From assembly GCA_030265395.1 (NCBI GenBank), contig JARFYF010000054.1, forward strand, positions 11,910,935 to 11,974,934: a stretch of 64,000 nt of DNA, written 5' to 3'. The notes under the pieces were generated by a model. That model worked only from the letters and a program-made list of their open reading frames with translations. It had not been told where the DNA came from and ran no database searches. The first letter of the stretch is position 1, and every line of letters starts with the position of its first letter. The stretch comes from Rhina ancylostomus (taxonomy: Eukaryota). Below are positions 772 to 61,505 of this stretch, piece after piece. The position numbers and the translations under genes were made by a program.

Positions 772-1070
772 TAGAAGAAGGTCATTTGGCCTATCAAGTC
801 TGTGTAATTGCATCAGGGCAATTGCATCAATCCCATTTCCTCTTGTATCTCTGTGATCCATTCTATCCCGCATGACCATCGGACACTGGTGTAATTTGCA
901 GGAATCAATTAACCTACCCACCAGCATGTCTTTGGAATATGGGAGGAAACCTGAACACCATGTGATCATGGCAGAAAGTGCAGACTCCACAGAGGCAACA
1001 CTGGAGGTCAGGATTGAACCAGTTGTTGGCGCTGTGGGACAGCAGTACTACCTGCTTCACCACTGTGCCT
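772..1070 (-). mobile_element. tRNA-derived HE1/V-SINE-like SINE
   Basis: tctttggaatatgggaggaaacc and ggaggtcaggattgaacc (reverse B-box) match the reverse complement of the copies at 15222 and 30770. Confidence 0.8.
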
Positions 1071-1929: not shown

Positions 1930-2115
1930 ATAAATAAGTTCCGGCGGAAGCATCGGATTTACGTGGATGGGACTGATATCCCTGAACCAGTTGCTACCTT
2001 TGAGCAGCTCAGACAAGAATATAAAGTCCACTCAAAAATTATTCAACATGTGCAGGAAGCTGGGTTCCAATTTCCTACTCCAATACAGATGCAAGCCATA
2101 CCCATCATGCTGCAT
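1930..2115 (+). CDS. DDX52: DDX52 exon [27 protein letters not shown]...[18 protein letters not shown] (Q motif)
   Basis: ttttcaag|ATA acceptor, CAT|gtaagt donor, 186 nt; contains the DEAD-box Q motif. Confidence 0.95.
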
Positions 2116-2224
2116 GTAAGTGTTTTGTTGGTTCACATGCAAAACATGAGCCCTGATGCATCTTTTTGCAGACCAGGCAGGTAAGAAAGTAAAGAATAGA
2201 AGTGGGAGTAGATCTTTAGATCCT

Positions 2225-2330
2225 TCATGAAAAAACGAGATACTGGAGGAAATCAGCAGGTCAGGCAGCATCCATGGAGAAAAGCAGATGGTCAATGTTT
2301 CGGGTCAGGACCCTTCTTCAGGACAGAACT
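2225..2330 (-). mobile_element. Penelope-like terminal repeat (pLTR) fragment
   Basis: ggaaatcagcaggtcaggcagcatccatggaga matches the reverse complement of the tail downstream of the GIY-YIG remnant at 39165-39230. Confidence 0.75.
2291..2324 (-). ncRNA. Minimal type-I hammerhead ribozyme motif (best-preserved copy)
   Basis: Minus strand reads GTC-CTGAAGA-A-GGGTC-CT-GACCC-GAAA-CATT-GAC: CUGANGA box, perfect stem II, GAAA box, NUH triplet AUU, stem I GTC/GAC. Confidence 0.65.
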
Positions 2331-2639
2331 TTATTCCCCAATGATAAATTCTCAGTACTTTGTTTTATTCTGAGTGACCCCAAGCTGCAGTACATTGTTT
2401 TTTATTAAATGCATCCTTTCTATTTGTATTTGTATCCTTGTTAACATTTGTCAGCTTGGTGGAAGGAGGTTATAAGTGCATAATGTAGAGGAACATAACT
2501 GTTTAAGCCCTTGAATCTCTTTCAACATTCAATAAAATAATGAATGTGACCTAGCTCCATATGCTCAGCATTGAACATCCAGTTCTTCACCATGATTCTT
2601 CACTGTCCTACCTCTTGATGCGCAATACTGCCTGCACCC

Positions 2640-3370
2640 TTTCCCCCAACAATCAAGATCTATGACAAGTCCCTAGTCGACATGAATTGCTTCCCATATT
2701 TTGGGAGTCAAAGACAGACACCAATGACTAAATCCACCGCTCTGTTCAGTGCACCAGTACAGACTTTGGTCACCTGAGGAAAAGAGTGTTGGAAGACCAA
2801 GACCTCAGATCTGGCATTAAGCTCATGATCAGTTGATCAGCAGGGAGTCCTGCCTTCCTCTACGCTTCAGAACCAGTTTACCAGAGGATCCTCAAAAGTG
2901 CTGCAGAATTACACCAATAAAGCAATGTTAGTGTCTTCTCCCAGACCAACATTACAAGCTTTAATCACGTTAAGCCAGCTCTGTTGGATAGGTCACATTC
3001 TTCACATGCTTGATATCAGCACTTTATGGCAGATCTCGGAATAATGAGCAATTTCCATAAGGAGAGAAAAAAAACCTTTTCAAGTGTGTGCTCAAAAATT
3101 CCTTAGAAAAAATGTAACATCCTCATTGGCTCATGGGAATCCATGGCCCAAGACTACTTAAACTTGTGGACTAGAATCCAGGAAAGCCACAAGCATTTTG
3201 GGTGTCCCCAGGAGCACCTGGAGGACAAGTACAGACAACGGTAAGAACCTACAGCAATCCAAACAACCCAGCCCACCCCACCATCTGTCCCACCTGTGAC
3301 AGAGTCTGCAGCTTCTGCATTGGGTTCATTAGTCACAGCCGAAAGCTAGAACTTCAGTGGAAACAACTAA
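2640..3370 (+). mobile_element. Degenerate RTE-clade LINE fragment (RT C-terminal region)
   Basis: Frame-broken remnants such as FPYFGS and FGHLRKRVLEDQDLRSGIKLM are typical of RTE RT; related to 40370-41350. Confidence 0.65.
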
Positions 3371-3761
3371 TGCTTGAATGAAGTACTGCCTTTTAAAAGA
3401 AAAAATAATAGTGTGCTATAAGGCTTCATGCCATTGGAACATATTCCCAAAAATGGGTGGACACTTGCTGATTAATTTTACTGACACATCAATAGTGTAC
3501 CTGGATGCTAGATGGAATTTCATTTGCACAAGCAGAAATTGTGTGAACGATGCAAATTTTAGGGAAGGTGCACTTTCTGGGGCACAGAATTTGAAGTTCA
3601 TTAATGCTATTGCAAGTAATTGCACACCATCTCCTATATTTTGAAGACCAATGGATAAATAAAATGAAAATAAATATTTCTCAGTAGCTAAATATCAATT
3701 GATTTAAATATTTGATGTTATATTGGTGTTATTCTGAAACTGTTTTATGTACCTGTCACAG

Positions 3762-3905
3762 AATCGTGAGATCCTGGCCTGTGCCCCAACTGGATCAGGA
3801 AAGACATTGGCATTTTGCATTCCACTCTTGACGTGTCTAAAACAGCCAATGAACAAAGGTTTCAGGGCATTGATCTTAGCTCCCACTCGAGAGCTTGCCA
3901 GTCAG
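3762..3905 (+). CDS. DDX52: DDX52 exon [18 protein letters not shown]...[13 protein letters not shown] (motifs I, Ia)
   Basis: cacag|AAT acceptor, CAG|gtaagt donor, 144 nt; Walker A APTGSGKT and PTRELA. Confidence 0.97.
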
Positions 3906-4410: not shown

Positions 4411-5464
4411 GCCCAATATAGGGTTGATAGAGCATAAGATAGTGACTCCATGCCATAAGATATTAGGCAGCATTGCAATGGCTTTCCATCAGCTTCAAGG
4501 ATGTTTAGCAAAACTACGCAATTCAACATATTAGTTTACTTCAACTTGTTTCCAATGAAAATTTGTTCTAAGAAATAAAATCTTTAAATTGCTTCCTTAA
4601 GAAAACTAACATTGTTTTTCTGCCCCCTTGCAGGCAACTCCTGGTTTACAAAAGTGACAAAGAAAGTGAAATCATTTGCTGCATTTCATGAATCGACAAC
4701 ATTTAACACACTCATCATCATCTATGTCCTGCTGTATGTATTTCCCACATGAATCTATAGTCTTTTAAGAACCTTGAAGTTTAAAAGAACCTATGACACT
4801 TTCGATAAAGAATACTTGTAGGATATTGGCAAAACAATGGTAATTCAGTAGAATTTATTGTTCCTACCATTTTAACTGAGGAGTAGCTGCCCCCAAAATA
4901 GCATGTGCCCAGATTCTTGGCAGTGTTTAGGCAAGTGTCCAACATGCCACCTACTTAAGGTTGTGGGGTCTTTTGATATTCAAATCCTATGGCTATATAT
5001 TGGGGCCCAAATTGTCACCTTAGTATAGAAATCGCAATTCTATCAAACAAAGATCCTTGTTTTGGAGGATGAGAGAGATCAGGAGTGCTCCCTCAATTTG
5101 TGCAAAAGTGGTCAAGGTGTAGTACTTTTTTCTTCTCTGCCTGCAAATCAAATCTATCATTTTGAAGTCATGGTATCCACTGCTGTAGTGTCCTTAAGGT
5201 GCACTACTCTGAGCAGCCAGTTTTCTGCCCTTTTTCCACTGAGAGCATAGCAATGAGGCACACTGCTCCACACGGCTCCTTCTACTTGGCACTGTCAAAG
5301 TAGTCACAGAATATTCCCTGGTCAGTTGTGCAATGGTCCAAAACAAATCATGTATTTCTAAATTGACAAAGCAATTTTTTTTCCCCAAGGGTATTAAAAA
5401 ATGTGTGGGACTAATGCATAAGTATGGATCATGTGAAAGAGCAATAAAAACTTCAAGCAGTCTT

Positions 5465-5645
5465 ACAGCAATACAGCATGAAAACAGGCCCTTCAGCCCA
5501 ACTCATCCATACCGACCATGGTGCCCACCAAGCTAGTTCCACTTGCTGGCATTTGGCCCATATCCCTCTAACCACCTCCTATCCATGTACTTGTTCCAAA
5601 TGTCTTAAATGTTATTATTGTACCTGCCTCAACCACTTCTGGCAG
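5465..5645 (-). mobile_element. CR1-type 3' tail fragment
   Basis: acaggcccttcagccc...gcatttggcccatatccctctaa...tacctgcctcaaccacttc is similar to 7725-7910 and to the reverse complement of 43800-44000. Confidence 0.7.
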
Positions 5646-6395
5646 CTAAAAGATGTTTTGTAACCATCATTTAAGATGTGAGATATAGGTAATTGATGAT
5701 TTACTATCATTATAGAATATATTGTGCCATGTGTTTGATGAAGAATAACACTTGCAAGTGATTTAGCTACACATTATTCCATAAATAATTTGCACATTTG
5801 CAGGAAATGGAGTTTCAATGTCAATCCTTTACTTCATTTTTCCAGAGTACTGCTGTTGCTGATTTCATCAGGGTACATTGGCTTAAGAATTGTGGCCCTT
5901 GAGGAGCAACTGATGTCCATGGGAGCCTGGCCAGAATTTCATACGCAAAGCGAGTAAGTGCAGTAATAAGCTTAAAAATGACAGGTTAGAAACTCTCTTC
6001 CTCAGTTGCTGGCACTAAACATGTAATATGGCAGCTGGTTGTACAGTAATGAATTTTGTAGTGGAATGCAACAGTGTGCTCATGTACACTAGCAAAATGT
6101 GTCTAAATGTACCTATAGGCTAAATTTGCGTGGAACATTTGAGCGGCTGAAACAGTCCAAACTACTTCTGAAAGGCATTATTACTGAATAGATGCAATAT
6201 TACCGTCTAATTTGAAAGGATTTCTACTCCTTCTATTGAACTAACAGATACTTCGGTGCAAAGTATCACTGCTTAAGGCTGAATTAAATGAAAATATTGT
6301 GTATAGGCAATTTTTATGCACACATACAAAGAAATATCCTCTTTTAGCTCCATGGAGGATTTTTCTCATTTTAAAGAAATCAGGCAGGAGGTCGG

Positions 6396-7657: not shown

Positions 7658-7714
7658 GTTTGATGCTAGTTTTTTTTACACAAATTTACTCAGAAGCCGT
7701 AGTTGATGCATTGT

Positions 7715-8300
7715 AGACTTGTAGAGTTGTACAGCACAGAAAAAGGCCCTTTGGCCCTACTCATCCATACTAACCAAATGCCTGTCTGTGGTAATCCCAT
7801 TTACCTACATTTGGCCAATATCCCTCTAAACCTTTCCTATGCATGTCCCTGTCCAAATGTCTAATAGCTGTTGTAATTGTACGTGCCTCTACCTCTTCCT
7901 CTGGCAGCTCGTTCCATACACCCACCTGCTCTGTGTGGAATAACTTGCCCTTAAGATCCCTTTTTAAATCTTTCCCCTCTCACCTTAAACCAATGCCCTT
8001 TAGTTTTAGACCTGCACCCCCAACCTGGGGAAAAGGCTGTGACTATCTGCCCTACTTGTGCCCCTCATAATTTGATAACCTTCTATAATGTCACCTCTTG
8101 GCCTCCTTCATTCTAGGACACAGCTTATTCAATCTCTCCTCGTAACTCACGTCCTCCAGTCTAGGCAACATTCTGGTGATTGCATCCTTCCTAGAGTAAT
8201 ACTCCAAGTGCGATCTAACCAATGATTTATACAATTGTAACATGATGTCCCAAATCTTATAGTCTGTACCTTGGCCGATATGGTCAAGCATATTATACAC
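7715..8300 (-). mobile_element. CR1 LINE 3' fragment
   Basis: Minus ORF 8091-8300 LQLYKSLVRSHLEY...ITRMLPRLEDVSYEERLNKL is CR1 ORF2 C-terminal sequence; CR1 tail at 7720-7830. Confidence 0.85.
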
Positions 8301-10164: not shown

Positions 10165-12415
10165 TAGAGTCATACAGCACCAATATGCCCTTTGACCCAC
10201 CATGCCTATGCAGACTGTCAAGTACCTATCCATACTAATCCCATTTACCCCGACTTAGTCTGTAGCTTTCTATGCAATGACAATTCAAGTGCTCAGCTAG
10301 ATGCCAAAATGTTGTGAGAGTACCTACTCCACCACTCACTTAGGCAGTGTGTTCCAGATTCTAACTACCCTCTAGGTGGAGAAAGTTCCCTTGTAAACCT
10401 CTTACCCCATGCCTAAACTAGTGCTTCCTAATTATAGGTACCTCTGCTATGGGGAAAAGTTTCCTGCTATCTAACCTCTCTATGCCCCTCCATTAGGTCC
10501 CCCCCCCCCCCTCGGCCTTTTCTGCTTCAAGGGTTTAAGAAAAAACTATCTGGTGTCTCCTCATAACTGAGACTGCACCATCCCAGGTAACTTCCTGGTG
10601 AATTTCCACTGCACCCCCTCTAATGTCCTTCCTGTATCTTGGCAACCAGAACTGTACACAGTACTTAAACTGTGGCCTAACCAAAGTTGTACCATAACCT
10701 CCCTGTCTTGTATGCTCTAGTTAATGAAGGCAAGTATCCCATATGTCTTCCTCACCACCTTATCTATTTCACCCATATGCTACATCCTCCAGGGATTCGT
10801 GAACTCCTACATTGAGGTCCTTTTGTTTCTTAATACTTCCTAAAAGCCTGCCATTCGTTGTGTATGTCTTTCCTTTATTAGTCCTCCCAAAGTACATCAA
10901 CTCTCTCTTATCAAGGTTGAATTCCATCTACTAGAAACACTCAGCAGATCAGAAAGCATCTCTGGAAGCATAAACAATTAAAGTTTCTGATATGGGACCC
11001 TTAGTCAGAACTGGAGAAGAGAAATACAAGTTAGTTTTCAGTAGGAGAGAAGGTGGAGGGATGTGTAGAACAAAGGGAATATCTCTGAAAGGATGCGAGT
11101 TCACATGTCTTAATGGGAATAGTTACCACATTAAGCTTCTTTATTTGTGTAATGTGATACAGACAAAGAATGAAAGTCAGCTGCCTAAAATTAGATAATC
11201 CGATTTGATCTTGGAAGGCTACTGTGTGCCCAATTGGAAGATAAAGTATTGTTTCTCAAGCTTGGGCCTTGTTGTAACATTGCTAGAGGTCACAAACAGG
11301 CCAGAGTTGAAGCAGGATGGTAAATTAAAGAGGCAGGTAATCAGAAGCTCAGGTTTGGGTGATGGCTGCTGAGCATCTGCATTCATTCCGCAGGGGTGAT
11401 CCTGAGCTTCCCACCTCTTCACCTTTTACAACACATTACACAGATAATGGAGCTTGATGTGCTGGTAGCTGACTCCATTAAGCCATTTGGATTCATATCA
11501 GAGATATTCTCTTTGCTTTACACATTCCCTCCTCCACCTTTTCTCCTACTGAAAACTAACTTGTATTTCTCTCTTTCCCAGTTCTGACAATGGTCCCAGA
11601 CCCAAGACATTAACTGCTTTTCCAGATGCTGCCTGACCTGAGTGTTTACAGCATTTTTTGTTTTTATTTCAGATTTCTAGCATCTGCTGTTTTCTTTGAT
11701 TCATCTACCCTTGCTCTGCCCATCTTATCAACTGATCAGTATCAGTCTGTAGTCTTAGACTATTTTCCTCATTATCAACAACAGTACCAATTTTCTTATC
11801 ACCTGCAAATTTACTAATCATACCTCCTGCACTGGTGTCCAGATCGTTAATGTATGGACCCCAGCGCTGATCCATGTGGTGCAGTCTTCCAAACACAATA
11901 GCAAACCTCCACCGTCACACTGTCTCCTATTACCGATCCAATTTGCCTGAATCTCAGGAGCTGTAACCTTTTGGACCAGTCTCCCATGTGGGACCTTTTC
12001 AAAGGCCTTACTGAAATCCATGCATATGAATCTATAATCAAACAAACTACCCTAATCAATGCATTTTTTTAACCACCTCAAAAAAAAATCAGTTAAATTG
12101 GTCAGACATGATATTCCCCCTAACAAAACAATGTTAACTGTTTTTATTTAATCCCTGCATTTCCAAGTGCAGGCTAATCCTGTCCTTCAGAATTTTTTCA
12201 ATAAATTCCCTACCACTGGCATTAGACTTGCAAGCAATTACCTGGCTAATCCCTATTGTCCTTCAATAAATGTACTATATTTACTGTCCTCCAGTAATTT
12301 GGTACTTCACCTGTGGCCAGTGAAGATTTAAAAATACTCATTATAGCCCATCAATCTCCTCCCTTGCCTCCCATAGCAGCCTGGGATACATCTCAACATG
12401 CATTGGGGATTTACT
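10165..12415 (-). mobile_element. CR1 LINE fragment (RT domain and 3' end), split by a Penelope-like insertion at about 10932-11695
   Basis: Minus ORFs MDFSKAFEKVPHGRLVQKV and YINDLDTSAGGMISKFAGDKKIG are degenerate CR1 RT motifs (DFSKAFD, FADD). CR1 tail near 10170-10260. Confidence 0.85.
10932..11695 (-). mobile_element. Penelope-like element remnant with inverted terminal repeats
   Basis: Arms at about 10935-11090 and 11498-11652 are reverse complements, including 30 nt perfect (gagaaatacaagttagttttcagtaggaga). Internal minus ORF RPKLEKQYFIFQLGTQ resembles the PLE GIY-YIG C-terminus. Confidence 0.8.
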
Positions 12416-15221: not shown

Positions 15222-15572
15222 AGGATGGCACAGCTAGTAGAATTGCTGCCTCACAACTCCAGCAACTAGGTTCAATTTGACTTCCAGTGCTGTCTGTGTG
15301 GATTTTGACATTTTCCCTGTGACTATGGATTTCCTCTGGGTGCTCTGGTTTCCTCCCACATCCCAAAAATGTGCAGGTTGGTAGGTTAATTGAACACTGT
15401 AAATTGCCCCTGGTGTGTAAATGAATGGTAGAAAATGGAAGTACAGACAGTTGATGGGAATGTGGGGAAAATAAAATGGGCTATGATGGAATTAATGTAA
15501 AAATAGGTGCTTGATAGTTAGTGTGGACACGGTGGGTCAAAGGGCCTGTATCTGTGTTGTACGACTATAACT
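15222..15572 (+). mobile_element. HE1/V-SINE-like SINE, near full length
   Basis: tRNA-like head (tggcacagctagtag, ggttcaattt), central ctctggtttcctcccacatcccaaa, CR1-type tail gggtcaaagggcctgtatctgtgttgtacgact. Confidence 0.85.
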
Positions 15573-23234: not shown

Positions 23235-23340
23235 TGAAATAAAAACAGAAAATGCGACAGATATTCAGCAGGTCAGGCAGCATTTGTGAAGAGAGAAACC
23301 AAGTTAACCTTTCTGACTGATAATCGTTCATCAGAACTGC
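23235..23340 (-). mobile_element. Penelope-like pLTR fragment with degenerate hammerhead motif (23302-23338)
   Basis: aaataaaaacagaaaatgc...tcagcaggtcaggcagcatttgtg; minus strand reads AGTT-CTGATGA-...-GAAA-GGTT-AACT. Confidence 0.7.
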
Positions 23341-23617
23341 ATTTTGTAACATGAAACATTTCCTGAATGAAGCAAGTTAGATAATTTTGAATATGTGACT
23401 CAATACAACACTCAGTAATTCTGATGGTAGTTGCTGAGATGTAACCACCAATTACAAAAGGGAGAACTAAGTGTATTAATTAAAATTCAGGAGAATTGTT
23501 GAAAAAGTAATTGTAAATAAGAATATAGAAAATGAAATGTGGCAATATATTTCTTGCTATGCCTCAGGATCCCAGCTAGTGAACAGGGAACTCTAATTTT
23601 TATTTTGCTGTTTACAG

Positions 23618-29874: not shown

Positions 29875-30040
29875 CCTCCATCTGCTTATCACCCCTCCTT
29901 ACCTGAATCCACCTATCACTTGCCAGATCTTGCTTCATCCCTTCCCCTCACCTCTTCATATTGACTATCTTCCCTCTGTCTTTCAGTTCAGATGAAGGGT
30001 CTCGACCTAAAATGTCGACTGTCTATTTCCTCCACAGATG
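29875..30040 (+). mobile_element. Penelope-like pLTR fragment with hammerhead motif (29984-30021)
   Basis: CAGTT-CAGATGA-AGGGTCTCGACCT-AAAA-TGTC-GACTG: stems I and II retained, core boxes mutated. Confidence 0.75.
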
Positions 30041-30279
30041 GTTCCTGATAAAGATGACCCAAATGAAGATGAGGTTACTGTTACATTCAACATCTAATAT
30101 ATGGTTGTTATGTTCCCAAACATTTTTCAGTCCTTCTAACACAAAAATTGTATCTTCCAGACACAGTTCCTTCATAAAGAGGACAGGCATATGATCTTAC
30201 ATTTCCCTTCATCCTTTTTAGTTGCTGGCCTTTACATTTTATAGCACAAAACTGACAACTTGATTGAGTATGAGAGCCC

Positions 30280-31930
30280 TATATTGATTAAGGCGTGGGA
30301 AAATGGGGTCAGTAGACCTACTAAGGTGACTGATATTATTCTTTCCAACTGAAATTATAGGTAGAGTGAGATGGGGAGGATTGTAATACATGTAGGCACC
30401 AATGACATCAGCAGGAAAAGAAAAAGAGGTTGTGCATAATTGGTATGAGTATCTAGGCATCAAATTAAGAAACAATGTTAAAGGTGATAATTTCTGTGCT
30501 ATTACCTGAGTCACTTGCAAATTGGCATAGGACAAATACTGTTCGAGGAATGATCCTGTGACGTGAAGCCTGATCTGCTAGAAGTGGGTTCTCATTCATG
30601 GTGCATTGGCATCATTAAAGGGGAAAGTGAAGACTGTACCACTTGGGTGGTCTAACCTGAACTATGCTAGGACCTTTGTTTTAATGAGTCATGTAACTAG
30701 GCAAGCAGGGAGCATTTTAGATCAGCTAAGGGGTCAAAGTCGCAAGAATAAATCAAAGAGTAGTGCAAAGCAGCACAGTGGTGTTAGTAGTGCCATTGCT
30801 TCATAGCTCCGGTGACCCAGCTTCAATCCTGACCTCCAGTGCCATCTGTGTGGAGCTTGCATGTTTTTCCTTTGACTCTGTGAGTTTCCCCTGGGTGCTC
30901 TTGTTTCCTCCCACATCCCAAAATTGTGCAGGGTGGTAGGTTATTCAGCCACTGTAAATTGCTCCTAGTGTGCAGCTGAGTGGTAGAACCGGGGGGCTGG
31001 AGGAGTTGATGGGAATGTGAAGGAATAAAATGGGATTAGTGTTAATTGGTGCTTGACAGTGGTGCAGACATGATGGGCCAAAAGGCCTGTTTCCATTCTG
31101 TACAATTCCATGACAAAGCAAGAGAGAATACTGTCCTGGCCAAATGATAACGATTATGAAAAGAAGAAATAAAGAGGACAAATCTAAGAGTAAATCAGTA
31201 GATAAGGACAGAGATTACAAAAATAATAAAAGAATAAAGTTAATGGCTCTCTATCTGAATGCATGTAGCATTTGAAATGGGACAGATGAACCAAGTATGC
31301 AGATAGAAATATTTATGATATGAGAGCTATTATAGAGATATGATAGCAGGATGACTTAGAATGGGACCTGAATATTGAACAGCAGGAAGGACAGCAAGCT
31401 AGGAAAAGGTGGAGGTGTGCCTCTTACTTAATGATAGTCTTGACACACTAGAGAAGGATGACCTAAGTTCAGGAGACTAGGATGTAGAAGTTGTTCAGAT
31501 GGAGATGACAAATGATAATGGAAAAAGTCACTTGTGCGAGTGGCGTACAGACCTCTTGAACAGAAACCACATGGTAGGATGGATTGTAAAGGAAGAAATA
31601 AGGGGATTGAAAGATACAAGATCACGAGGGGTCTTAAAGTGCATGTAGAGAGGATGTTTCCTTTTGTGGAACAATTTAGAACTAAGGGTTTAAGACAGAT
31701 AAGGTGAAATCTGTCAGAGAGCTGTGAGGCTTTGGAACTCAATTGTGGTGGAAGTAGAATCTTTGAATATTTTTAAAGCAGAAGTAGAATGTGTGATAAG
31801 CAAGAGACTTAAAGGTTGCTGGGTGTAGACAGTATAGAGTTGAAGTTGCAGTGAGATCAGCTGTGATCTCATTCAGTGATGGAGCAGCCTCAAGTGACCT
31901 TCACCTGTGTCTAGTTCACATGTTCTGAAT
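30280..31930 (+). mobile_element. Internally deleted CR1 LINE: ORF1 esterase end plus endonuclease start fused to the 3' end
   Basis: catgtaggcaccaatgacatc gives HVGTNDI (SGNH esterase block of CR1 ORF1); gctctctatctgaatgca gives ALYLNA (APE start); CR1 3' region from about 31610. Confidence 0.7.
30770..31113 (+). mobile_element. HE1/V-SINE-like SINE nested in the CR1 remnant
   Basis: Colinear with 15222-15572; caaagca occurs at both ends (30766-30772 and 31114-31120), a possible TSD. Confidence 0.88.
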
Positions 31931-36390: not shown

Positions 36391-37694
36391 GTGTTCTTGT
36401 GAAGAACCTTGTATTTAGTATTGAGGTATGCAAATCTAAGTTTTACCTCTGCCTTTTGTATATTATAAAACTTGCAATATTTCAGAAGATTTTCATTACC
36501 AGAAAATGTTCCACTTTTAAACTGGTGTAAGCCTTAGTTACTCTACTTTTCTACTCCTTTCTAAGTTTTTGTTAGTGCGAAGAGGAAACATGCAAATTCT
36601 TTTTAATATGTACCATATGTTTCTGTAAAATTTCAGCCAGTATAAATTTATCCACTTTACTATTCTGTAACCCTTTGAAATCATATACATAAGAACCTAG
36701 GAGCTAGGAGAAGATTAGACCATACAGCCCCTTGTTTCTATTCTGCCATTCAATGACTGTAGCTGAAGTTGTACCAGTGATACCTTCCTGCACAACCCTC
36801 ATGTCCCTTAATATCAACAGTCATCACACTTCATATTTTTGTGAGATAAACAGTTTTCTTTATCATTATTCATTAGAGTCCAGATTACCTGACTGGCTCT
36901 GCTGTTTAGAGGTCCTCACTTTAAACAAATATGCAATAACCATTCACCTCTTAGTTCAGCCGTTTTATCTTTCTCCTATCCATGATTCCATATTTCTTTG
37001 TAAGTGAAAAAAGAAACACGGTTTACTTCAGTCAAAATGCCATCACTCTGATGTGCAAAAATTGCCACAAGGTTGAATTCACAAAAGAAAGACTATGTGG
37101 CATTCCTCGAAAATGGATAACTGACTGAATGTGGACCTAACACGAGCAATAATTGCATTTCATTCAGATTACTATACTGAATAAGTTGTCCAAGACTGAC
37201 TGCATGTGGTCCTTCAGAATCCATGCTGCCCTTTGTTTCTCTTGCCATGGAACAGATTTCCAATATTCATCCGAGAGGCATACAAATAGATGCTCTTTTC
37301 AATGGGAATGTATTTTCAATTGCAGACATTTTTCATAACACCACTTTTGTAATGTTCCAAGTTAAACTGCACAGTCTTTGCCACCTTTCCAATTCACTAC
37401 ATGCTGATCAGTGCAATTTGTGACAATCATTGCAACTCCTGCAAGAGGTTTGCAATTCAAAGCAGAAAGAAATATCATCCTCTGATATGTTCTATCTTGT
37501 AAATATTCTTATCATTACTCTCTGCAGTGGCTGTATGAATTAATGACACAGGCATTATGAATATAGCTGTAATTGACACTGATTCTAGCCACATTTTCGA
37601 TGATCAAAGGGAATTTAAGAAGTTGTAGGCCTGAAGTTTCCAGTGAGGACTTGGGTGAAGCTATCTGATTCCCCATTATAATAGACAATATCTA

Positions 37695-38055
37695 GACCAT
37701 AAGACACAGGAGCAGGATCAGGCCATTCAGCCCATCGAGTCTGTTTCGCCATTCAATTATGGCTGATTTATTTTTCCTTCTCAACCCCATTCTCCTGCCT
37801 TGTCCCCATAACCTTTGACACCCTTGTTAATCAAGAACCTATCAACCTCTGATTTATATATACACAATGACTTGGTCTCCACAGCCATCTGTGGCAACAA
37901 ATACCACAGATTCACCACCCTCTGGCTAAAGAAATTCCTCCTCATCTCTGTTCTAAAGGGACATCCTTCTACTCTAAGGCTGTGTCTTCTGGTCCTGGAC
38001 TCTGCCACTACTGGAAACATCCTCTCTATGTCTACACTATCCTCACCTTTCAATT
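37695..38055 (-). mobile_element. Relatively young CR1 LINE 3' fragment
   Basis: Minus ORF VDIERMFPVVAESRTRRHSLRVEGCPFRTEMRRNFFSQRVVNLWYLLPQMAVE is the CR1 ORF2 C-terminus; close match to 60951-61269. Confidence 0.92.
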
Positions 38056-38289: not shown

Positions 38290-39250
38290 ATGGCATCTCT
38301 GCCAGCCCCAACTAGATTCCACTACTCCTTTCAGCATTTCACAGGGATTGCTCTCTAGGCGACTTTCTGGTCTGCTTATCCATCCCCATCAACTATTCCC
38401 TGTCTTATCACATTTTCCCATTGCAGCCACGGGATGGAACACCAGTCCTTTCACCTTTTCCCTTCCCACCATCCAGGGAGTCAAATAGTCTTTCTAGGTG
38501 AGGCAGTGATTTCCCTGCACTGCTTTCAGCCAAATGTACTATATTCAGTATTTACAGTGTAGTCGCCGCTACAGTGGAGAAACCAAACGCAGATTGGGTG
38601 CTCACTCTATGGTGCACCTCTGTTCAGTCTACAAAGGTGATCGTGAGCTTCGTATTGCCTGCCATTTTAATTCTCCATTCCACTCCCACTCTGACCTGTC
38701 TACCTGTGGCCTCCTGAGCTGTTACACGGCAAAGCCCAAAGCAAGCTTGAGGAACAACTGCCAATCTTCCATCTGAGCATATTGCAACTCTCTAGGCTCA
38801 ATTTCGAATTCTGCAAATTTAGGTAACTCCCTTTTTCTTCCTTTCTATATCAGAATTGGCCATTTCTGCCAGTCATTCATCTGTAATATTGGCTTAGATT
38901 TTCCCTCTTTTTTTATAGCCTTGTCTGTGGGCACTTCCAACAGCTCTGTTATTAGCAATACATAACACAGACAAAGAAACATAATGTGCTTCCAACCTCT
39001 ACATTAACTCATTTACCTCGTCTGGTTCACCCTATCAGAGCTATTCCCTTTGAATTTCTCATCCCTTCCTGTCTTCCCTGAAAGTGAAAATTAATCTGTT
39101 TTCTCTGTTTTCCAGTTCTGACAAAGGGTCTCAAACTTGAAACATGAACTCCTTTTCTCTTTCCACAGATGCTGTCTGACCAGCTAAATATTTCTTGCCT
39201 TTTCTGTTTTTATTTCAGATTTCTGGTATCAGTAGAATTTTTGATTTTCA
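38290..39250 (+). mobile_element. Penelope-like element 3' part: GIY-YIG endonuclease remnant plus pLTR with hammerhead motif (39114-39150)
   Basis: ORF 38534-38776 YYIQYLQCSRRYSGETKRRL...IACHFNSPFHSHSDLS is a degenerate VYxxxC..YIGET-R-H GIY-YIG; followed by aagcttgaggaacaa (KLEEQ) and the pLTR tail. Confidence 0.85.
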
Positions 39251-43797: not shown

Positions 43798-44000
43798 TTG
43801 AATGAGCTGCCGGAGGAAATGGTTGAGGCAGGTACAATGGCAACATTTAAAAGACATTTGGACAGGTAGATGGAGAGGAAAGGCTTAGAGGGAAATGGGC
43901 CAAATACAGACAAATGGGACTAACTTAGATGGGCAACTTGGTCAGCATATACAAGTGGGCTGAAGGGCCTGTTTCTGTGCTGTATTACTCTATGACTCTA
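43798..44000 (+). mobile_element. CR1 3' end fragment
   Basis: gaatgagctgccggaggaaatggttgaggcaggtac...gggctgaagggcctgtttctgtgctgtattactctatgactcta tail. Confidence 0.85.
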
Positions 44001-60859: not shown

Positions 60860-61505
60860 GGGTGGTGATGCAGCAGTTAATGCAGCTGCCTCACATCTCC
60901 AGGGACCCACATTCAATTCTGACCTTGGCTGTTGTCTGCATAGAGTCTGTAAGATCTGAGGGCACAGCCTCAAAGTAAAGAGATGTCCCTTTAAAACTGA
61001 GATGAGGAATTTCTTCAGCCAGAGAATGGTGAATCAGTAGAATTCATTGCCACAGAGGGCTGTGGAGGCCAAGTCATTGGCCTGTGGATGACTTGGCCTC
61101 TGCCTGTGGAACCAGAGATTGATGGGTTCTTGATTGGTAAGGGTGTTAAGGGTTACAGGGAGAAGGTGGGAGAATGGGGTTGAGAAAAAAATCAGCCATG
61201 ATTAAATGGCAGAGCAGACTCGATGGGCTGAATGGCCTAATTTTGTTCCTATATCTTATGGTCTTATGGCATATTCTCCCATAACTGTGAAGATTTTTTT
61301 CAGGGTCTGTCAATTTCCTCCTGGAATTAATATATCAGCGAAGATGTGCTGATATATTAATTGGCTAAAAGAATCAAAAGGGGAAGTTGAAAGCCTGTGA
61401 GAGGCACTGAGTTGCAGGTCTACAAGATGTGGAAGATTGTGATTGATGGGATTTCTCTGCTGGCAGCCAGTATGAACTTGATGGGCTGCATGGTCTCTTG
61501 TGTCT
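60860..61505 (+). mobile_element. HE1-like SINE interrupted by a 5'-truncated CR1 (about 60951-61269)
   Basis: The SINE head ends at ...gcatagagtctgt and resumes at catattctccccataactg after a CR1 3' end terminating tcttatggtcttatgg. Confidence 0.8.

What the first reader, a model, noticed from the sequence alone, without database searches (positions are those of the whole stretch)
2291..2324. Near-intact hammerhead ribozyme motif antisense in a DDX52 intron
Seen on the minus strand: GUC CUGAAGA A GGGUC-CU-GACCC GAAA CAUU GAC, i.e. both catalytic boxes, a perfect stem II, an NUH triplet and a stem I. Established: Penelope-like elements carry minimal type-I hammerheads in their terminal repeats, with a vestigial palindromic stem III thought to work as a dimer. 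Here the expected AACGUU palindrome reads AACAUU, one CpG-type change away. Inference: a recently active self-cleaving RNA module in this genome.
Basis: partly seen in the sequence, partly recalled or inferred. Interest (0 to 1): 0.7.

Follow-up and report, generated by a model that had tools for sequence, protein, structure and literature searches.

The report
Decayed Penelope retrotransposon hammerhead stub
The self-cutting-RNA motif is real, but it is the front of a roughly 100-base leftover end of a known kind of jumping gene (Penelope-like), one of thousands of old worn copies in this genome, and it is most likely inactive here.

Summary
The motif is at 2291-2324 (minus strand), inside a DDX52 intron and antisense to it. 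It is the 5' edge of a ~100-bp stub (2227-2324/2328) of a high-copy Penelope-like element. Longer copies carry broken RT, CxxxxCxxC linker and GIY-YIG remnants upstream. They also show the optional ~35-nt tail and inverted partners typical of these elements. Minimal hammerheads in such ends are described (PMC4209133).

'Recently active' is not supported. In 100 copies picked by flanks only, the catalytic core decays like its neighbours (56/1000 vs 140/2200) and CpGs survive in 36-42 of 100. The window copy has 8 changes in 74 nt against a mean of 6.5. Its exact 34-mer occurs 260 times. Its G-to-A change breaks the only dimer helix.

One extra: 39 of 79 short copies begin at the front edge of the hammerhead, at an initiator-like motif 31 nt behind a TATA-like box, with no excess at the cleavage site. 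This suggests copying of uncut transcripts to their 5' end. This scan has reported this element class, and the shared start point, many times on other DNA and in this genome.

The parts
2291..2324 (-). Minimal type I hammerhead motif: 3-bp stem I, CUGAAGA box, extra A, 4-5-bp stem II, GAAA box, no helix III loop; position 16.2 (2296) is A where the family majority is G; predicted cleavage after 2294
   Evidence: 260 genomic copies of this exact 34-mer and 483 of the family form
2227..2328 (-). Whole insertion: tail-less terminal-repeat (pLTR) stub of a Penelope-like element. The 5' junction is at 2324 or up to 2328 (ambiguous); the 3' end is at the T-run/CAT end shared by tail-less copies; no target-site duplication was recognised
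1930..2115 (+). DDX52 coding exon upstream of the host intron
   Evidence: E 5e-25 to 3dkp_A residues 4-65
2116..3761 (+). Host intron (GT...AG, phase 0); the stub lies 111-212 nt from the donor, antisense
3762..3905 (+). DDX52 coding exon downstream of the host intron (Walker A region)
   Evidence: E 5e-19 to 3dkp_A residues 67-113

Best explanation
This is a hammerhead-shaped motif at the front of a ~100-bp leftover terminal repeat of an endonuclease-bearing Penelope-like retrotransposon (likely Neptune type), one of thousands of old copies decaying without sign of selection, and this copy is most likely inactive. Shown: family membership, copy number, linkage of the same end to RT, zinc-linker and GIY-YIG remnants in longer copies, two alternative 3' ends about 35 nt apart, inverted partner copies, and neutral-looking decay. 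Inferred: the stub was made by the element's own RT and endonuclease in one old burst, primed at the first of the two internal start sites and copied to about the 5' end of an uncut transcript. The ancestral motif would have cleaved only as a dimer or with the element's protein. Here a G-to-A CpG change removes both C-G pairs of the 4-bp homodimer helix, there is no tandem partner, and DDX52 pre-mRNA carries the non-catalytic complement.
For: Family size: 2155, 6554 and 2267 exact pattern hits, controls 0. Element identity: upstream frames with RT and GIY-YIG motifs; exact CxxxxCxxC linker in 17 of 29 loci anchored on the endonuclease, which PMC8557442 (passages) assigns to Neptune/Nematis. 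3' ends: 43 tail, 47 tail-less, 6 broken, 4 masked of 100 copies, with inverted partners often showing the opposite tail state, as described in PMC11167929 (parts 1-2 of 4) and PMC3846280 (passages). Decay: non-CpG substitutions 56/1000 in the core vs 140/2200 outside (p 0.43); CpG kept in 36/100 at C11.1-G12, 42/100 at 15.2-16.2 and 37/100 at a control CpG; the two hammerhead CpGs decay independently (p 0.53); only 5 of 100 keep boxes, stems, G10.1-C11.1 and a pairing 15.2/16.2. Hammerhead intactness does not track downstream identity (rho -0.06, n 92). Among copies anchored on the endonuclease, 0 of 24 keep the full core plus palindrome (five further copies fell below the identity filter). 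Rough dimer energy: -10.3 family/family, -4.5 mixed, -1.2 window/window kcal/mol. A contig from a second organism runs from unique intron sequence into 26 letters of the motif at about 2% divergence, suggesting the insertion predates that split.
Against: No cleavage assay or RNA data were available, so inactivity is inferred. Pfam GIY-YIG hits are below cut-off (E 0.045 and 0.025) and the RT remnants gave no Pfam hit, so the protein identity rests on motifs read from broken frames and on recalled PLE motifs. In the smaller endonuclease-anchored set the core looked slightly better kept than downstream sequence (8/274 vs 81/1334, p 0.04); this did not hold in the 100-copy set. 483 copies do keep the perfect family 34-mer, and only 150 of 49047 endonuclease candidates were scored, so a rare young subfamily is not excluded. 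The orthologous contig falls short of the tool's 31-letter bridging rule and does not cover position 2296.
Confidence: 0.9

Rival explanations
1. The family is young and still mobile, and this is a recently inserted, nearly functional ribozyme.
For: Only one change in the 34-mer; 483 perfect family 34-mers exist in the genome.
Against: Poisson-like divergence with no near-identical copies among 92; the window copy has 8 changes in 74 nt; about 60% of CpGs lost; long copies read are broken by stops or frameshifts; probable presence in a second organism.
Confidence: 0.04
2. This copy has been domesticated as an intronic regulator of DDX52, like the conserved RECK intron hammerhead of amniotes.
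For: It lies close to a splice donor in a housekeeping gene and keeps both boxes.
Against: It is antisense to the pre-mRNA, lacks helix III and tertiary-contact loops, has lost the dimer palindrome, and the rest of the stub has drifted at the family's average rate.
Confidence: 0.02
3. The ~100-135-nt unit is a non-autonomous element (SINE- or retrozyme-like) that amplified from its own short master transcripts rather than as a by-product of full-length element RNA.
For: Short copies share a start and two fixed ends, and 7 of 22 such copies are framed by duplications of 10 nt or more (null 26 of 1400). A 2026 preprint (10.64898/2026.07.22.740005, parts 1-2 of 5 plus passages) derives animal retrozymes from pLTRs.
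Against: The short unit is the same sequence as the end of the long element, without its upstream TATA-like box, so it carries no evident promoter of its own. No tandem arrays of the unit were seen in the loci examined. Retrozymes are defined as tandem units.
Confidence: 0.15

Closest known systems
Minimal hammerheads (min-HHR) in pLTRs of metazoan Penelope-like elements (Cervera and De la Pena 2014, PMC4209133; parts 1-3 of 4 read; supplement term search, file 1 not searchable)
   Same: [quoted passage not shown]
   Different: Shorter stems here (I 3 bp, II 4-5 bp, versus 4-5 and 7-8 bp in Schistosoma). No shark or ray term was found in the searchable supplement files. This copy has lost the palindrome.
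Poseidon of Anolis carolinensis (Frangieh et al. 2024, PMC11167929; parts 1-2 of 4 read)
   Same: Two 3' ends about 35 nt apart (the optional tail) roughly 100-135 nt past the hammerhead; uncut RNA appears to be the template.
   Different: There the hammerhead overlaps the ORF start and cleaves only with the protein. Here the linker points to Neptune/Nematis, no 5' ORF end was recovered, and nothing was tested biochemically.
Neptune/Nematis EN+ PLE clades (Craig et al. 2021, PMC8557442; passages)
   Same: RT, then CX2-5CxxC linker, then C-terminal GIY-YIG; inverted 5'-truncated copies; one-sided tail.
   Different: No phylogeny was run, and only broken partial frames were recovered.
Non-LTR retrozymes (bioRxiv 10.64898/2026.07.22.740005; parts 1-2 of 5 and passages)
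   Same: Non-coding, pLTR-related, carrying a type I hammerhead; reported in one chondrichthyan.
   Different: Defined as tandem units with intact hammerheads; this is a solitary decayed monomer.

Membership tests
min-HHR of PLE pLTRs | CUGANGA and GAAA boxes, U16.1, H17 | tested here: met
   Window sequence and family majority; H17 is U in 97 of 100
min-HHR of PLE pLTRs | Stems I and II, G10.1-C11.1 pair, extra nucleotide after A9 | tested here: met
   stems are short (3 bp and 4-5 bp)
min-HHR of PLE pLTRs | Palindromic 15.2-16.2 allowing dimer helix III | tested here: not met
   Met by the family majority (CG in 42 of 100, the commonest state) but not by this copy (CA)
min-HHR of PLE pLTRs | Location in the terminal repeat of a PLE | tested here: met
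   The same end follows the GIY-YIG remnant in endonuclease-anchored loci
min-HHR of PLE pLTRs | Self-cleavage as a dimer or with protein | not testable with these tools
   No assay; no RNA run listed
EN+ Penelope-like element (family level) | RT followed by C-terminal GIY-YIG | tested here: met
   Motifs in order in L181 and L182; Pfam GIY-YIG only below cut-off
EN+ Penelope-like element (family level) | Optional 30-40-nt tail and inverted 5'-truncated partner | tested here: met
   43 tail and 47 tail-less of 100; inverted partners listed; 38 inverted junctions of 79
EN+ Penelope-like element (family level) | Full pLTR-ORF-pLTR partial tandem with intact ORF | tested here: inconclusive
   None in the loci fetched; only 150 of 49047 candidates scored
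Neptune/Nematis clade | CX2-5CxxC linker between RT and EN | tested here: met
   17 of 29 loci exact
Neptune/Nematis clade | RT phylogeny | not tested
   No reference sequences were at hand
Non-LTR retrozyme | Tandem units each with an intact hammerhead | tested here: not met
   Solitary copy; the other related fragments in the window are 8.6 kb or more away and decayed
Canonical Rfam hammerhead families | Score at the gathering threshold | tested here: not met
   0 matches in the window

The most novel reading that the evidence does not exclude
The fossil record of this family maps the element's transcription start: stem I of the hammerhead begins at the second nucleotide of the RNA (initiator-like TCAGT, TATA-like box at -31). 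The many 100-135-bp solitary hammerhead stubs are then strong-stop-like cDNAs, primed at the 5'-proximal internal start sites and run to the 5' end of an uncleaved transcript. This would explain why minimal hammerheads litter vertebrate genomes as monomers, and would be genomic evidence that cleavage is not a step in making the template.
Probability: 0.5. Interest if true: 0.4.

Novelty: new member of a known kind. Interest (0 to 1): 0.16.

Why it matters
The locus itself matters little: it is one ordinary dead copy. The family statistics give a cheap handle on an open question, namely what PLE hammerheads do. 5' junctions pile up at the front of the motif (39 of 79 in 9 of 53 positions) and show no excess at the cleavage site (6 observed, 6 expected). 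That agrees with the in vitro finding that uncut RNA is the substrate, and it predicts where transcription starts.

Tried and rejected
- Rfam scan: nothing. Two-box pattern and folding z-score: not above chance, so not used as support.
- The 30 best BLAST hits are biased towards the window's own variant and were not used for frequencies; flank-anchored and endonuclease-anchored samples were used instead.
- A faint resemblance of 2325-2460 to an inverted older copy gave no nhmmer hit.
- Target-site duplication around the window copy: none.
- Direct-repeat pairs 4.4 kb, 0.9 kb and 1.6 kb apart (L031, L032, L185) did not turn out to frame a PLE ORF.
- A pile-up of 5' ends at the cleavage site was tested and not found.
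- The upstream pyrimidine tract plus CAG also resembles a 3' splice site. Host exons spliced on as the cause of the pile-up is disfavoured for those copies where a duplication abuts the junction (6 of 22), but it is not excluded in general.
- Sequencing runs: no RNA holder listed. The second lay gave no contig for the left flank.
- The paper on dimer cleavage of PLE hammerheads (PMC5785218) is not held; I know it only from the review PMC6765202 (passages).
- Searches for shark or elasmobranch PLE hammerhead papers and for a TATA/TSS-hammerhead link returned nothing specific; subscription papers and Repbase were not searchable.
- Rows dropped: 21 of 100 copies in the junction analysis (13 internal deletions or indels, 2 masked, 6 long copies); 8 of 100 in the divergence analysis (indels or masking).

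Full report
Observation. The minus strand at 2324-2291 carries the motif exactly as described. It sits in the intron 2116-3761 between two plus-strand exons whose translations match consecutive parts of human DDX52, so it is antisense to the host pre-mRNA. On its own the motif is not statistically striking: the two-box pattern occurs 10 times in the window against 7.1 +/- 2.8 in shuffles, the 34-mer folds with z -0.26, and Rfam reports nothing. In hammerhead numbering the dimer palindrome is A15.1-C15.2-N16.2-U16.1; here 16.2 is A and the triplet is AUU. A published ranking puts AUU and GUU among the weaker triplets (PMC8879150, passages).

It is part of a repeat. A 111-nt query gave 2313 candidates in the 2.2-Gb genome, 40 scored, at 89-94% identity. 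Exact patterns give 2155 hits for the subfamily core, 6554 for a looser stem II pattern and 2267 for flank anchors, with 0 for reversed controls. The window's exact 34-mer occurs 260 times and the family form 483 times. Homology in the window runs from 2324 (or up to 2328) to 2227. Five older, more decayed relatives lie elsewhere in the window. That the host is a cartilaginous fish is my recall of this repeat plus earlier scan notes, not a test.

The repeat is the end of a Penelope-like element. In longer copies the same end is preceded by a pyrimidine-rich tract and then by broken frames with RT motifs, a CxxxxCxxC linker and a GIY-YIG-type motif. The exact linker is present in 17 of 29 endonuclease-anchored loci, and the motifs stand in order in L181 and L182. 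Pfam support is weak (GIY-YIG E 0.045 and 0.025, below cut-off). The linker points to the Neptune/Nematis clades (PMC8557442, passages). Of 100 copies, 43 end with a ~35-nt tail, 47 end without it, 6 are broken and 4 are masked; inverted partners upstream often show the opposite tail state. This is the described PLE signature, explained in vitro by two internal RT start sites (PMC11167929). The window copy is tail-less and has no recognisable target-site duplication.

Age and selection. I sampled the first 100 copies on contig C1 that match flank anchors only, so the hammerhead was free to vary. H17 is U in 97. CpGs survive in 36 (C11.1-G12), 42 (15.2-16.2) and 37 (downstream control) of 100, and the first two decay independently (p 0.53). 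Non-CpG substitutions are 56/1000 in the catalytic core and 140/2200 elsewhere (p 0.43). 34 copies keep both boxes; 5 keep boxes, stems, the G10.1-C11.1 pair and a pairing 15.2/16.2; 3 match the majority over all 34 nt and 8 differ once. Over 74 nt in 92 usable copies, mismatches have mean 6.5 and variance 6.7, hammerhead and downstream decay are uncorrelated, and the window copy has 8 (78 of 92 have as many or fewer). In the endonuclease-anchored set 0 of 24 keep the full core plus palindrome; there the core looked slightly better kept than downstream sequence (p 0.04), which the larger set did not repeat. A contig from a second organism runs from unique intron sequence into 26 letters of the motif with 16 substitutions and a 6-nt gap over 696 nt. 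This suggests a shared, older insertion but misses the tool's 31-letter rule.

Mechanism. Shown by others: single min-HHRs did not cleave and dimers cleaved weakly (PMC4209133); the anole Poseidon hammerhead cleaved only with protein and was dispensable for insertion. Computed here, roughly: the dimer arrangement costs -10.3 kcal/mol for the family form, -4.5 mixed and -1.2 for the window copy. Inferred: this solitary, antisense, palindrome-broken copy does nothing. No RNA run was listed, which is not evidence either way.

Where short copies begin. A pattern designed to pick copies truncated near the hammerhead gave 813 hits; I analysed the first 100 listed and dropped 21. Numbering the A before stem I as +1, 39 of 79 junctions fall at -3 to +6 (9 of 53 positions; binomial p 4e-11), none at -14 to -4, and 6 at +31 to +35 around the cleavage site against 6 expected. 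The peak holds for plain-flank junctions (22 of 41) and for inverted junctions (17 of 38). Seven of the 22 plain-flank peak copies are framed by duplications of 10 nt or more, six abutting the junction, against 26 of 1400 for mismatched pairs; these were therefore inserted as short units. In long copies the majority upstream reads TATATA from -31 and TCAGT around +1, the canonical TATA-initiator spacing (recalled); a TATA plus initiator pair is also described in a rotifer pLTR (PMC3846280, passages). My reading is that +1 is the transcript start and these stubs are cDNAs of uncut RNA. Rivals are RT stalling or template switching at the base of stem I, and the 3'-splice-site-like sequence at the same place; in D. 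virilis the intron end maps to the 5' end of helix I. My searches found no paper stating this link, but coverage is limited. I found the pile-up before seeing that earlier scan notes report it too; those notes are not independent support.

Verdict. A real but ordinary decayed minimal hammerhead of a Penelope-like terminal repeat: a new member of a known kind, low interest for the locus, modest interest for the family-level start-site inference.

Noticed in passing
window 10929-11023 (-), 11577-11692 (+), 23241-23348 (-), 29979-30047 (+), 39109-39220 (+): Five older, more decayed copies of related hammerhead-bearing PLE ends; none keeps both boxes intact in register.
   Followed up: partly
L187, L191, L209, L254, L260: A recurrent 13-nt deletion between two 7-nt direct repeats removes the CUGAAGA box and half of stem II in several independent copies, probably by slippage.
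   Followed up: no
family upstream sequence, positions -19 to +2: The tract before the hammerhead is also a strong 3'-splice-site look-alike (pyrimidine tract plus CAG), and the tail often ends in a similar pyrimidine tract plus AG; sense-strand intronic copies could be exonised.
   Followed up: no
L033, L035, L050, L124/L125, L174: Head-to-head pairs 500-700 bp apart; in the pairs scored one arm mostly has the tail and the other lacks it.
   Followed up: partly
window 893-1051, 5459-5647, 7714-7914, 15237-15552, 30819-31093, 37694-37984, 43800-44000, 60963-61264: Other interspersed repeat families with several copies in the window, not identified.
   Followed up: no
window 2707-2990: Raised contig depth shows another repeat fragment in the same DDX52 intron.
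   Followed up: no
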